Source: Tubulanus polymorphus (taxonomy: Eukaryota; Animalia; Nemertea). From it: a stretch of DNA of 64,000 nucleotides. The position numbers and the translations under genes are program-made. Below, piece after piece: positions 47,101 to 59,100 of the stretch (the stretch's first letter is position 1; each line of letters begins with the position of its first letter). The stretch spans positions 3,038,001 through 3,102,000 of the forward strand of contig NC_134025.1 in NCBI RefSeq assembly GCF_964204645.1. Direction: 5' to 3'. The notes beneath the pieces were generated by a model. The model was not told where the DNA came from, ran no database searches, and worked only from the letters and a program-made list of their open reading frames with translations.

Positions 47101-50100
47101 ATGAAGCCATGGAAGACAAAACTATCACGATATCGTATGGATCTGATTTTGTGAACACTAATTTTGTAAACTTTGTTAGTAACAGTAAAGAAATCGCGAA
47201 GGTACGTTTATAAATGATCAGCCCTAATTTACGATATCATTGATTGTTGAATTAGTACAATGCTTTCCGCTGCGAGACTAATCATAAATTTGCTTATCAG
47301 GATGGATTGGGATGAGATTTGATTTGAGAAACTGTATCACGTTGTCTTTGTCAATAAAATCAATGAACTTCAAATCAAAGTACTCGTAAGCAGTGTCGGA
47401 AATGTCATGTTGCAGGAATGGTGTGATCTGTTGATGAAATGTTCAAATAATTTACTGGCTGGTAACTCCAGCGTGATGTCATTCCTAGAACGAACTTACA
47501 CGAAGATAAGTGTACTAGTCAATGCAGAAGGCAAGATACCTGTGAAGTCGTAAGTTCCATCATGACTACATAAGCACCTTCGACATATTGCTTTTTTACG
47601 TGTCGATTTGTTCATAAGCTTTTCAAAAAGGTTTCTTCCGTCATGAATTGACGGTCGATTTTCTTGCTTCCTTTGCCATGTGGTGTACGCGAGGATCGAT
47701 ATCTTTGGATCATATCATCGGAATTCGTATCCGATGTGAGAGAAATGAGGATGATCTATGTAAAACCCAGAATCATCGGTCACACTTCTCTTAATACACA
47801 GGGTCCAGTTCCACAGTTATGAGTTAAGACTTAACTCAGAGTTAACTCTAACTCACGACTGTGGAACCGGGTCCAGGTCGCTGTCAACGCTAACAGTCAA
47901 TAGCTCGCGGCCCCTGTACTGATTCTGCCGGTTCTAATAAATTTCCAATCTAAACACAAGGCATGATCTAAGTACTTGGAATGATTAAAGATTCAGTGAT
48001 TGAGATCATTGCTGTGATGTGAGATATATCCCGATTAAATACATTAATATGCACGAACGGCGTAGCTCAATCTAGTGAATAAACATTCAACTTCCAGTAG
48101 CCCGAGGTTCATTCAGTAGATTTCACATTATAACGGTGTAAATACGGGTCGATATTTAATCGGTTTTTTCTGTACCTATGTTGTTTTTATATTATATTTT
48201 TCCAAATGGTGTCTTTCAGATTTTTCAAACATTTTGCGCAGGGTAAAGACGATAGAAAGAGAATTGAAAAATCATTAGAATTTGGCAATTTGCCATGTGG
48301 AAAGGTCAGTTCTGGCCTACGAGATTTACACCAGACAAACGACTAAAAATATATAATTGCCTCGACGTTTTTTATGATTTCAGAATGATGCTTTACCTAC
48401 TTCAGCTTTCACATTCAAGGACTTCTTTACATTCTATATGAATTTAACCAAACGACAAGAAATGGATAAAATATTTGCTGAAATGTATGTATTTTGTTCT
48501 ACGCCTATCATTCCGCTTGCTGTCCACATTTTTCTGCACACAGTACATCTATGTAAACATCTCCGGGGCCTTACTACATTTTAAATATTAATGAGACAAA
48601 TAGTAGTCTCAATATTTTCGACTCCCATTTGGTTGAAATTTAGAAAATATTTGCGTGATATTGGAACGTATTGATAACGGATTTCTCTTAAGGTATATTA
48701 TTAGATACGTGGTTAGTGCACTGCGTCAACGCACCTTCAATAGTTTCATTTCAAATCATTCACATTTGTCTTTTTTTAATGTTAACACTGTATTAATGTA
48801 AAAATATGTATATATGTATATATATATATGTGAATCAGTTTTCTTCTATTTTTACTGATTCGATGCACAGCTGGTAAGATTGTCTGAATCCTTTTTCTAT
48901 TTCCTATTGTATATATAATGATCATGGCGATATAATTATTCCCATTTCCCTGTATTGATTCCTGCGAAGAAGCTGATGGCATCATTTACATCTTACATAC
49001 ATTTTTTTAGAGTAATTTTTGTAACGTACATTATCACTGAATCATACTTCAACATCTTTTACCGATGTATTTTATATCTTTGCCAATAATGAGAATAGCT
49101 CTTGAAAAGATTTGAAGACGTAAATGATGACATTTTGTAGCATGTGCGAATATATTGAAAACTGTTTGATTACAGCGATGTATATCCCTATTCAGATTAA
49201 CATCAACTTTATCACCTTTACTAACTTGCTATTTCTGGTTTACTTTGGGAGAGGACCTTCCTATCTACCTGAGTGAAGCCTTGCATTTTTCTCAGGGCTG
49301 GATTGATCATTAATCTGATTTACTGCATCCAGTGTTGATCTGAATTTAAATCTTATTGAATGAATCTATTTAAGCTTGAATAGAATTTCATCTCCTTACA
49401 TTTGATCCTTATTTGCATGATATATATGCATATCATTAGTAATTGATTTAAGATCAGTTGTGGGCTTTTAACTATAGACCTTTCCAGTATCGTACACAGG
49501 TACGCTATTATTCCAATGCTTCTTGGTTGATTTTCATCATTAGTATGATGTTCTTATGCTTTATTTCCGGCGTTGGTTTTGGTTTCGTGCCTCCAATCTT
49601 TTAAACTGTGTATTTTTATTTACTGATGAAATTCAGCAAGATGTATTCACAGACTACGAAACAGGTTATAGGGTTAAAATTGTAATGCATGTACTTTGAA
49701 CTTGAATAAATGTTAAATGCAATATTCAAAATCTGTAAACACTTATTGGTAATTTGTTCATCAATATATGTATAACAGTATGATAAGCATCTGTTGCAGA
49801 TTAACAATTTGCCTTACATAATTGAAAGGACATCCACAAGCCTAAAGGCTGTACCCAAGAGCGGTGATTCCCTAGACACTTCATGAATTTTTGTTGATGA
49901 CAGGTAGAATAAACGCCTTGAACTTTTCGATTTTCTAGTGGTGCCAAAAAGAAGCCTTATTATCACATAACTGTGGAGCAGTTTGTAGATTTCTTAAATA
50001 ACGTTCAACGTGATCCAAGACTGAATGAAGTTTTATACCCGTACTACGATGTTAAACGTGCTCAGCAGCTTATTAACATTTATGAACACAACAAAGCAAT

Positions 50101-56100: not shown

Positions 56101-59100
56101 TTACTGATGATTTTGAAGTCAGCGTAAGTATTACAAATTTTAAAAAAGATCCAGCAATAAACAGTATCAAAATGGTTATAAAAGTATCTTAACAAATCTG
56201 TGATTATGGATTAAATATTCATAAATACTATATTATTCCCATGTATTTAGGCAGAACGTGTAAGTATTCATATCAATGTATCCAGTATTCTCTTAACACA
56301 CCCAAGAAACCCAGACCTCCAAATATATCACACCACACTTACCTCGGCATTTACAAAACAACCATGTGAAATGAGCATGTATTTATTGGTACAGTGAATT
56401 TCTTATGAATGAACCTGTTTGTCAAGAACAGGAAGGTTCATTATTTGATATGGTGAAAACCGTATATTGAAAGTCATTATTACCCTGCACACAGCCTATC
56501 AATGTATATGTAATTGATTTTCATTTATATATGGTGAATATTCTATGATTTGTAATTAATCACATTGCTATCATCGAAAATATATTAAATCTGACTCAAT
56601 TCATCTAGTTACCATGTATTCTTAAACCATTCAGAATTCACAGTAATATAATTTTTGGTTTTATGTTTTTTTCTGAATTTGACAGGAAGACATTGTAAGT
56701 GTTTTTGCTTCTGTTGATATGTTTTTTTTTCTTGTTTGTCGTAAGCCATTTTCAAAGGTTACATGCATGTCCATAATTACCATATTGAAAATATGGAGAA
56801 GTTAGCTCATTATATTTCGAAAGAAAGTTGTGTTAGGCACTGACTAGTGGAGAAAACATGATCTTTTTAGATTGTTAGATAAAACCTAAACTGGCTGAAA
56901 CAGAGAAATAGTTGAGTTATTGCATGGTCAGCACAGTGAATATAATTAAACCAACTTGTAAAAGGCATGAATTACCGAACAACTTACAGCTTACTTAACA
57001 AGACTCTGGAAGAGTGACTACCACTAATATTTATTCCTGATGCAAGCAGCCCAAATATCCACATAATTGAACATGTAATTGTAATTGTTAAGCAAATACC
57101 CTCGACACCAGTTACTTAAACATACTGGTAGACATTTTTATGAGGACCACAGCTTAAATTCGTTAAACATCCGCACATTTTTATGAAGTAAAATGCACCA
57201 TGTCGTCAACACCAGCTGGTCACATTTGAATACGATAAAATTCTCACCTCACAGATAATGTATTTGTAGATGTTGATGATATACATAATGTACGTGCTAT
57301 GTAACATCTTAGTTTAAGTAAAATCCCACCACGGTGACCCATCGGGTATAATTTCTCCTAAATGAGTTTCATTTGAAACAATTGATGCGAATGTTTCTTA
57401 TTATGCAGGAAGAGAATGTGCCTGAAGTTGGTAAGGGACCACCACCGACTGGAGGAGGTATACAGAAAAGGACGAACTCTGTGAGATCTGTGCAGAGTAG
57501 TGATAGCGGAGGGGATACTCCGGCAATGAGTCGACAACAATCAAGTTCTCACGTGACTGCTTCAAAACAGGAAAGCGTAGCTTCAGGTATATACTTTAAA
57601 AACTACCGGGTAAACCATTTCAGACTTGTCTGCATAGATTTATAGATTTATTCATGATATTTCAGTTCCAGGTACACCGAGTACAAATCTTTCACGTGGT
57701 ATGTCAGTGTATAAAGGACAGAATACTGAAAATGGTGGACCGACGCAAAATATATTGCAGGCTTCAAAATTGAATGGTACGTAATGTTTGATAAGATAAA
57801 AACTAGATAAGTAGAATTCTAATTCGAAAATTTGGTTTTGATGATGAGAGTATTCGATTTTTAGAAGCAGAACTTATCGCGGCTGTTGATCTGGAGGACT
57901 TGAAGATGAATCAGAAATATCAGAAATTGTTCAAGAAAATGCAGAAAGAGTTGGATGTTATCAGAAAGAAACAAGAAAAGGTTGGTGAAATATGTTAAGT
58001 GATTATAATGTTAAAAGTGTTGCTTTCAATGATAGGCTAGCGTTGATATACATGATGTATGTTTACCTCTCCTGTATTACTAGAGAATATATTTGGCCGC
58101 TTTTGCATATAATTATGTATGCTAGTACATGTATTACTATAACTATTATTTCTCATGTACATCTCTAGATTTTGATTGCAATGAATAAATGTTTTCTAGA
58201 ACTATGTTGTACTTGTATATATATGTAAACTAGTATAAATGCAGATGTTGTTTTGGGTAACATATATGAATACTCGTCACAAATACGGATTGCTAACCCT
58301 TTGTATACTTCTACTATGCGTATATCCTTGGTCTATGTGGTATTGTTTTTTAGTGTAGTTTCTCACTCAATGGTTTATAAATCTTTCTTCCAGTCAATAC
58401 AAAAGTTTTTCAGAGATGTTGTAAGTTCTGTCTGCTAATCACTTAGCGTTTCTTCTGAATCTTCTTACTTTCCTTACCTCACTCTTTAACCCGATCCGCT
58501 TTCAAAATTCCTGTGTGTTCTTCATCATTGATTATCAATATCGGACTTAGGCTACATGTAACATGTGACAGCAGTAGAATATAATGTATTTTGTGCATGA
58601 CTTTGTGAAATACAAACATTGTTCATACAGAGATTCTGTTCAGTGTTTTGCTCATTTTAAATCTCAAAATTGAAGTTCGCTTCGAGTCTAAGCCACGATC
58701 TAACAGATATTATTTGGCCCAGGCCAGACACGAGTCAAATTTGGGCCGTGCTTTATTAGGGAGCAGGTTCACATGTGAATCACTCACTTGTTACTAAGAT
58801 GCTATCAAAATGATGTTTTAGCAAGTGAAGTCAGTCATTTCCAGAACCACTTAGTATAAACATTAAATAGTATAAACTTTAATTTGACCCCATGCTAGAC
58901 GTTTTTAGTAGTGTCAAACAGGCACTGAACCTTTTGGCACCCAGTTTGAACAAATGGCCTGGGTTAAAAATACCTGTGTGATTGTGGCTCCTGTGTACAT
59001 TGTTGTGATAATTCACTGCATTCAAATTCAATGCATGAAATTACAGTAAATTCTGGAGATAAAAAACTTTTTAAGAATTGCGCTTCTACAATTGATTCAT

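What the first reader, a model, noticed from the sequence alone, without database searches (positions are those of the whole stretch)
48871..58420. A hidden microexon set placed on the regulatory elements of PLC-beta
Seen: from 48220 to 60460 nearly all PLC-beta introns are ~70-190 nt. The four exceptions (1.45, 2.8, 1.3 and 1.44 kb) each contain AG|short|GT units whose lengths are multiples of 3 and that keep the frame open: 3, 24, 9+9 and 27 nt. These introns also carry TGCATG motifs (e.g. ~54242, 54271, ~54367, 56764, 56921, ~58594, 59032). Established: Rbfox binds UGCAUG and bilaterian neural microexons depend on Srrm/eMIC proteins. PLC-beta is controlled through its EF hands, the autoinhibitory X-Y linker, the Galpha-q-binding ALxxPI/H-alpha2' element and the distal CTD. 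Inference: one candidate falls in or beside each of these four elements. With two first exons this gives a combinatorial (up to 2 x 2^5) tuning system for Gq signalling that standard annotation would miss.
Basis: partly seen in the sequence, partly recalled or inferred. Interest (0 to 1): 0.82.

Follow-up and report, generated by a model that had tools for sequence, protein, structure and literature searches.

The report
Tiny alternative exons in ribbon-worm PLC-beta
The four long introns of a ribbon worm's phospholipase C-beta gene hold tiny extra exons (one shown spliced in by RNA, one in a database gene model, a stop-carrying exon spliced into some transcripts, and four more likely real but untested), an ordinary kind of animal splicing that would tune the enzyme's G-protein response and amount.

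Summary
The sequence claims hold. This is the PLC-beta gene of the nemertean Tubulanus. Four long introns hold five frame-keeping AG|short|GT units and excess TGCATG, both above shuffled controls. Only the 27-nt exon is proven: an RNA-like run and both RefSeq isoforms include it, with no skipping seen, so it is neither hidden nor shown to be alternative. The 24- and 9+9-nt candidates were skipped in that run, which also missed a RefSeq exon; the 3-nt one got no RNA test. All four remain likely (0.6-0.75). Other nemertean and mollusc gene models carry unrelated short alternative exons in three of the four introns, and in many other loops. Placement is mixed: the 3-nt site lies in a G-beta-gamma contact loop, the 24-nt site within the active-site lid, the 9+9 site only in the unconserved linker. 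Neural/eMIC control and the 2x2^5 code are unsupported. Verdict: real but ordinary bilaterian microexon splicing plus a likely poison exon. The scan noted similar X-Y-linker microexons in an urchin PLC-delta.

The parts
26138..60460 (+). PLC-beta coding span, 31 exons in RefSeq isoform X2 (PH, EF hands, X, X-Y linker, Y, C2, proximal and distal CTD)
   Evidence: exact mapping of P0001, one solution; Pfam; PDB relatives
26138..26236 (+). First coding exon A (used by both RefSeq isoforms)
28914..29009 (+). Likely alternative first coding exon B: ATG to phase-0 GTAAGT donor, 3' half similar to exon A
   Evidence: tblastn E about 1e-5 and ORF scan, sequence; no RNA test
48871..48873 (+). 3-nt candidate microexon in phase-2 intron 7; would add one Cys between Ile236 and Gly237 in the EF3 loop (PLC-beta3 I233|G234, G-beta-gamma contact patch). 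Probability about 0.6
   Evidence: UGC at -7, pyrimidine tract, GTAAGA donor; weak PWM score 8.7; Lineus has a 30-nt alternative exon in the same intron; no RNA test
49488..49499 (+). Probability about 0.3
   Evidence: PWM 16.2 bits; short AG-free zone of 8 nt; no RNA test
51901..51988 (+). 88-nt frame-shifting exon in the X-Y-linker intron; stop codon at 51916, 70 nt before its end: likely poison exon
   Evidence: GT..AG joints 51653>51901 (depth 7.4) and 51988>54497 (13.8) beside the skip (20.5) in run X2; translation
52336..52359 (+). 24-nt candidate 'a' (AGEKYAEW) at the X-Y lid junction (PLC-beta3 E577|G578). Probability about 0.7
   Evidence: best PWM score, 16.9 bits; not seen in X2 contigs; not in RefSeq
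52685..52708 (+).
   Evidence: PWM 12.7 bits; not seen in X2 contigs
54242..54372 (+). Cluster of three TGCATG (Rbfox-type) sites 125-255 nt upstream of the acceptor at 54497
   Evidence: enrichment
56251..56259 (+). 9-nt candidate (AER) at the start of the CTD linker. Probability about 0.75
   Evidence: PWM 13.8, strict rule; short alternative exons in this intron in 5 of 20 species sets; skipped in X2
56686..56694 (+). 9-nt candidate (EDI), TGCATG at +70 and +227. Probability about 0.75
   Evidence: PWM 15.9, strict rule; skipped in X2
58394..58420 (+). 27-nt exon (SIQKFFRDV) in the first long helix of the distal CTD; included by default, likely constitutive or dominant
   Evidence: both joints at depth 47, no skip listed; in 2 of 2 RefSeq isoforms; absent from all homologs shown; helical in the model

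Best explanation
This Tubulanus PLC-beta gene carries a small set of extra exons in its four long introns: a 27-nt exon spliced in by default, a 24-nt exon in one RefSeq model, an 88-nt stop-carrying exon spliced into some transcripts, and four further microexons (3, 24, 9, 9 nt) that are likely real minor cassettes, likely under Rbfox-type control. Shown: the exons, their splice signals, the junctions of the 27- and 88-nt exons, and the mapping to PLC-beta3 residues. Inferred mechanism: (1) the X-Y intron is the main switch; either 24-nt exon replaces the three residues before the conserved GTA of the active-site lid (T575-E577 of PLC-beta3) and would shift basal activity and Galpha-q relief, while the 88-nt exon would send the mRNA to nonsense-mediated decay (or give a 592-residue fragment without Y, C2 and CTD), setting enzyme level; (2) the 3-nt exon would lengthen the EF3 loop of the second G-beta-gamma site by one Cys; (3) the 9-nt exons would only lengthen the disordered CTD linker by 3-6 residues, with small effect; (4) the 27-nt exon is a lineage-specific insertion that the helix accommodates with a downstream Gly-Gly break. 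It is ordinary bilaterian cassette splicing at insertion-tolerant loops, not a designed combinatorial code.
For: RNA-like run X2 has 15 GT..AG joints, among them both joints of the 27-nt and of the 88-nt exon. RefSeq X1/X2 differ by the 24-nt exon b. 8 strong frame-keeping units against 0.78 in shuffles and about 1.4 expected from the gene's own introns 1-3 (4 in 20,677 nt); strict rule 4 hits, all in frame, 0 of 1000 shuffles reach 4. TGCATG 10 against 3.8; 0 in 2,801 nt of short introns; downstream enrichment is the published mark of alternative microexons (PMC4317164, passages). Isoform pairs in relatives differ by 17 residues or fewer at intron 22 in 5 of 20 species sets and at intron 14 in 4 of 20; Lineus also at intron 7. 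Lid T575-V584 gives about 700-fold autoinhibition (10.1101/2023.08.29.555394, passages); D227, K238, P239, Y240 contact G-beta-gamma (PMC10194004, PMC13626650, passages); mapping.
Against: No peptide is conserved in sequence in any of the homologs aligned; the nearest one found is Lineus, 62% identical over residues 560-1120. The weight matrices rest on 29 sites from one gene and the strict rule was set after seeing the candidates. Three other units score as well as proven exons (49011, 49488, 53877), so some high scorers may be chance. No TGCATG lies within 900 nt downstream of either 24-nt exon. The 88-nt exon rests on contigs of one run, its two joints on separate contigs, in a run with intronic cover, so it may be cryptic splicing of nuclear RNA. 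No effect on enzyme activity was tested.
Confidence: 0.65

Rival explanations
1. One reading: five neural, eMIC/Srrm- and Rbfox-controlled microexons, one per regulatory element, combine freely with two first exons into a tuning code for Gq signalling.
For: All five units and the second first exon exist; 4 of 5 pass the strict rule; the 3-nt unit has the eMIC-type 3' splice site described in PMC8797185 (section 10 read); two sites hit contact residues.
Against: 27-nt exon included by default; UGC in 1 of 5; 9+9 lie in the unconserved linker; the EF site is a G-beta-gamma patch, 26 residues before the Asn260 position (Asn260's role is recalled); relatives put short alternative exons at many other introns too (intron 2: 8 of 20 species sets; intron 8: 5 of 20); by my count about 15 of 29 intron positions lie in or beside one of the four broad elements.
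Confidence: 0.15
2. Only the 27-nt exon and RefSeq's 24-nt exon are real; the 3-, 24a-, 9- and 9-nt units are chance or decayed splice signals, and the 88-nt exon is cryptic noise.
For: Skipping only in X2; no sequence conservation in homologs; the 3-nt unit is not above shuffles by PWM score.
Against: Excess of strong in-frame units; X2 contigs also missed the RefSeq exon, so their silence is weak; positional recurrence in relatives; long introns in a gene of otherwise 73-188-nt introns.
Confidence: 0.15
3. The two equal-length 24-nt exons are a mutually exclusive pair, and with the 88-nt exon form a four-way switch (skip, a, b, decay) at the autoinhibitory lid; the other sites are secondary.
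For: Same length and phase, same intron, 325 nt apart; three TGCATG near the distal acceptor; clams show several short alternatives at this junction.
Against: No sequence likeness between the two peptides; joint inclusion keeps the frame open; spacing does not force exclusion; no RNA shows exon a.
Confidence: 0.2

Closest known systems
Bilaterian alternative microexons with downstream RBFOX motifs (Li et al. 2015, PMC4317164, passages read)
   Same: 3-27 nt, frame-keeping, TGCATG enriched in the downstream intron
   Different: Inclusion shown here for one exon only, which looks constitutive; no CLIP, conservation or tissue data
eMIC (Srrm2/3/4)-dependent neural microexons of flies and mammals (PMC8797185, section 10, passages and one supplementary table searched)
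   Same: The 3-nt unit has UGC near the 3' splice site, a pyrimidine tract and a branch-point-like motif
Short alternative exons in RefSeq PLC-beta models of Lineus, Patella, Haliotis, Biomphalaria, Physella, Mercenaria, Ruditapes, Mya, Dreissena
   Same: Same introns (7, 14, 22), similar sizes (15-54 nt), in frame
   Different: Peptides unrelated in sequence; none at the 27-nt site; inferred from protein differences, not from those genomes
Mammalian PLC-beta splice variants beta1a/b, beta2a/b, beta4 (PMC12195575, passages read)
   Same: PLC-beta diversified by splicing in regulatory regions
   Different: Described variants are mostly C-terminal; none at the X-Y lid or EF3 loop in the passages seen
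Poison exons coupled to nonsense-mediated decay (general knowledge, recalled)
   Same: Frame-shifting cassette with a stop more than 55 nt before a downstream junction
   Different: NMD sensitivity and conservation untested; the single search hit for PLCB1 with poison exon was seen only as a listing

Membership tests
PLC-beta subfamily | PH, EF, X, Y core plus proximal CTD (ALxxPI, H-alpha2') and coiled-coil distal CTD | tested here: met
   Pfam, alignments to cephalopod PLC-beta and human PLC-beta3, Foldseek top hits are PLC-beta CTDs
Alternative microexon | 30 nt or less, canonical AG/GT, frame kept | tested here: met
   six units (3, 24, 24, 9, 9, 27 nt)
Alternative microexon | Inclusion shown in transcripts | tested here: inconclusive
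Alternative microexon | Skipping also shown | tested here: inconclusive
   skip forms seen at introns 14 and 22 and in RefSeq at intron 7; no skip of the 27-nt exon in 1 RNA-like run or 2 of 2 RefSeq isoforms
eMIC/Srrm-dependent neural microexon | UGC close to the 3' splice site | tested here: not met
eMIC/Srrm-dependent neural microexon | Long AG-free zone | tested here: inconclusive
   25-64 nt in the five against a median of 30 at constitutive acceptors
eMIC/Srrm-dependent neural microexon | eMIC-domain factor in the genome | tested here: inconclusive
   PF15230 search blank, with no positive control ringing
eMIC/Srrm-dependent neural microexon | Neural-specific inclusion | not testable with these tools
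   no tissue-labelled raw reads were offered
Rbfox-regulated cassette exon | TGCATG enriched in flanking introns, downstream | tested here: met
Rbfox-regulated cassette exon | Motif conservation and dependence on Rbfox | not testable with these tools
   no congener genome; PF12414 search blank and uninformative
Poison exon (AS-NMD) | Spliced in, with a stop more than 50-55 nt before a downstream junction | tested here: met
   joints in X2; stop 70 nt before the exon end
Poison exon (AS-NMD) | Stabilised when NMD is blocked; conserved | not testable with these tools
   needs experiment or congener genomes

The most novel reading that the evidence does not exclude
Spiralian PLC-beta is tuned by a splicing module whose positions, not sequences, are conserved: a one-codon exon in the G-beta-gamma contact loop sets Gi input, a choice of lid-remodelling 24-nt exons sets basal activity and Gq gain, and a poison exon in the same intron sets enzyme dose, all under Rbfox-type control in neurons or muscle.
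Probability: 0.25. Interest if true: 0.55.

Novelty: new member of a known kind. Interest (0 to 1): 0.33.

Why it matters
It gives testable natural variants at two functionally mapped spots of PLC-beta: the X-Y lid, whose contact segment holds activity down about 700-fold, and the EF-hand G-beta-gamma site. It adds a likely poison exon in that lid intron. Searches for nemertean with microexon and microexons with Plc21C found no paper in the library held, so spiralian PLC-beta microexons seem undescribed there. The kind of regulation is well known in bilaterians, so the gain is a new example, not a new principle.

Tried and rejected
No RNA holder was listed as such; X2 was recognised as RNA-like only by its spliced joints; X1, X3 and X4 showed no joints and add only a few intronic differences, none listed at a candidate or its splice sites, too few to test conservation. 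The 3-nt and 12-nt candidates of intron 7 were not covered by the one lay that gave a result. Searches for close nemertean relatives: only the gene's own protein among 71 candidates; 3 snake PLC fragments among 8 candidates; of 148 new representatives 14 spanned the EF3 loop and none had the single added Cys. The Cys at this position in 22 of 82 scorable homologs (those named are arthropods) is suggestive, but loop lengths vary and their exon structure could not be read, so it is not counted as conservation. SRRM_C and Fox-1_C searches of the own genome were blank and uninformative. The 15-nt unit at 49011 makes a stop when combined with the 3-nt unit and the 12-nt unit at 53877 has a weak donor; both judged probably chance. 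A 9-nt reading of the 3' end of the 88-nt exon is excluded for the contig seen, which matches 30 letters or more on each side of the joint. Literature: Plc21C and norpA had no hits in the supplements of PMC8797185 (1 file) and PMC8042270 (8 files); the 2019 eMIC paper and a PLC-beta structure review were not held; bioRxiv supplements were closed and might list bilaterian PLC-beta microexons. The AlphaFold model covers only the included form; no skipped form was folded.
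Full report
Identity and structure. A distal-CTD exon of the window matched one protein at 100%, named by NCBI as PLC beta-1-like isoform X2 of 'Tubulanus pol...', a palaeonemertean genus whose only listed species with that beginning is T. polymorphus. Its cluster has 2 members, X1 (1289 aa) and X2 (1281 aa). 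Exact mapping gave one 31-exon solution from 26138 to 60460. Pfam, PDB alignments and a fold search confirm a PLC-beta; I built no tree, so the beta1-3/Plc21C clade rests on the names of the best hits.

Observation. Of 25 introns from 48305 on, 20 are 73-188 nt; the others are 1454, 2843, 1285 and 413+1004 nt. With weight matrices from 29 of the gene's own donors and acceptors, 8 frame-keeping units of 3-30 nt in the 7,026 nt of long introns reach 12.1 bits, the score of the proven 27-nt exon. Shuffles give 0.78 (0 of 300 reach 8), introns 1-3 give 4 in 20,677 nt, reverse strands 3 in 27,703 nt. The 3-nt unit scores 8.7, where shuffles give 3.5. A strict rule, set after seeing the candidates, picks exactly the 3-, 9-, 9- and 27-nt units; 0 of 1000 shuffles give 4 in-frame hits, 18 of 1000 give a 3-nt hit, introns 1-3 give none. 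TGCATG occurs 10 times against 3.8 (3 of 1000 shuffles), 0 times in 2,801 nt of short introns.

Transcript evidence. X2 shows 15 GT..AG joints and so behaves as RNA; the other three show none. In X2 the 27-nt exon is included (depth 47, no skip listed); intron 22 is skipped whole; intron 14 is skipped whole at depth 20.5, but two more joints define an 88-nt exon, 51901-51988, at depths 7.4 and 13.8, very roughly a quarter to two fifths of these junctions (contig depth is crude). It shifts the frame and stops in its sixth codon, 70 nt before its end. Neither 24-nt exon appears, so these contigs miss even the RefSeq exon and their silence on 24a, 9 and 9 is weak. Intron 7 got no RNA test.

Relatives. 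I listed isoforms of 20 homolog clusters (at most 15 members listed each, fragments left out by me) and compared them. In 20 species sets, differences of 17 residues or fewer map to intron 22 in 5 (Lineus with two alternatives of 5 and 10 residues, Patella, Haliotis, Biomphalaria, Physella), to intron 14 in 4 (Mercenaria, Ruditapes, Mya, Dreissena) and to the 27-nt site in 0; Lineus has a 10-residue alternative at intron 7. The peptides are unrelated to those of Tubulanus. The same comparison finds short alternatives at introns 2 (8 of 20), 8 (5), 3 (4), 13 (4) and 6 (3). So position recurs, sequence does not, and such exons dot most surface loops of invertebrate PLC-beta. These are gene models read as proteins; I did not see those genomes.

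Placement. Numbering from the alignment to human PLC-beta3 (chain offset of one checked against C221, D227, K238, P239, Y240 and T575-V584 in the papers). Intron 14 falls between E577 and G578, inside T575-V584, whose deletion raises basal Vmax about 700-fold and nearly abolishes Galpha-q activation (10.1101/2023.08.29.555394, passages): either 24-nt exon would replace the first three lid residues. Intron 7 falls between I233 and G234, between D227 and K238/P239/Y240 of the second G-beta-gamma site (PMC10194004 and PMC13626650, passages), so this site concerns G-beta-gamma more than Galpha-q. Intron 22 lies about 6 residues past H-alpha2' and over 20 past ALxxPI, in what PMC13626650 calls the unconserved CTD linker. 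The 27-nt peptide is a clean 9-residue insertion absent from all homologs shown. In an AlphaFold model of the included form (55 sequences, mean pLDDT 90.4) it continues the first long helix, which breaks at a Gly-Gly about 10 residues later with low confidence; homologs lack that Gly-Gly. I infer co-adaptation and default inclusion.

Regulation. TGCATG lies downstream of the 3-, 9-, 9- and 27-nt units but not within 900 nt of the 24-nt exons, matching the RBFOX pattern in PMC4317164 (passages). Neither factor could be found with Pfam models, and those searches are uninformative. Tissue specificity is untested.

Verdict. The neural eMIC label, the one-per-element design and the 2x2^5 code are not supported. 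It works like known bilaterian microexon and poison-exon splicing; membership of the eMIC class fails on the UGC test for most units. Searches for prior description (listings only) found no paper on these exons; subscription journals and bioRxiv supplements were not visible. An earlier scan note reports similar microexons in the X-Y linker of an urchin PLC-delta (not checked here). Interest 0.33; new member of a known kind.

Noticed in passing
window 51901-51988 +: 88-nt stop-carrying exon with spliced junctions in RNA-like run X2; not in the finding, not in the two RefSeq proteins.
   Followed up: yes
window 28914-29009 +: Paralog-like alternative first exon with its own ATG and phase-0 donor, absent from the two RefSeq proteins.
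   Followed up: partly
window 54055-54401, 56134-56495, 56616-57133: RNA-like run X2 covers parts of the long introns at depth 5-12 against 47 for exons: these introns may be slowly spliced or retained.
   Followed up: no
window 58610-59000: Dispersed repeat inside the intron after the 27-nt exon (depth up to about 400 in X1, many loose ends).
   Followed up: no
window 49940-49975 (exon 8): Two-residue insertion after the KPY motif of EF3 shared by Tubulanus and Lineus only, among homologs shown; also inside the G-beta-gamma patch.
   Followed up: no
P0144, P0158, P0219 and cluster mates: Oysters and mussels have isoforms that swap the whole ALxxPI/H-alpha2' exon for an unrelated one, which would alter Galpha-q binding and autoinhibition. 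A bolder switch than anything in this window.
   Followed up: no
P0198, P0024 and cluster mates: Dreissena and Mya isoforms look like mutually exclusive exons at the start of the Y domain.
   Followed up: no
window 865-2061 +; 7500-10700 -; 12665-13711 -; 14000-21600 +: Neighbours: a 398-aa single-frame ORF that looks like a GPCR (no Pfam hit, by eye), an MBT-repeat gene, a 348-aa single-frame rhodanese-domain ORF (CEP41-like by recall) and a PPR gene (LRPPRC-like by recall).
   Followed up: partly
window 63391-63627 +: Short ORF with a Cys/His motif resembling the end of a LINE reverse transcriptase (by eye; no Pfam hit).
   Followed up: no
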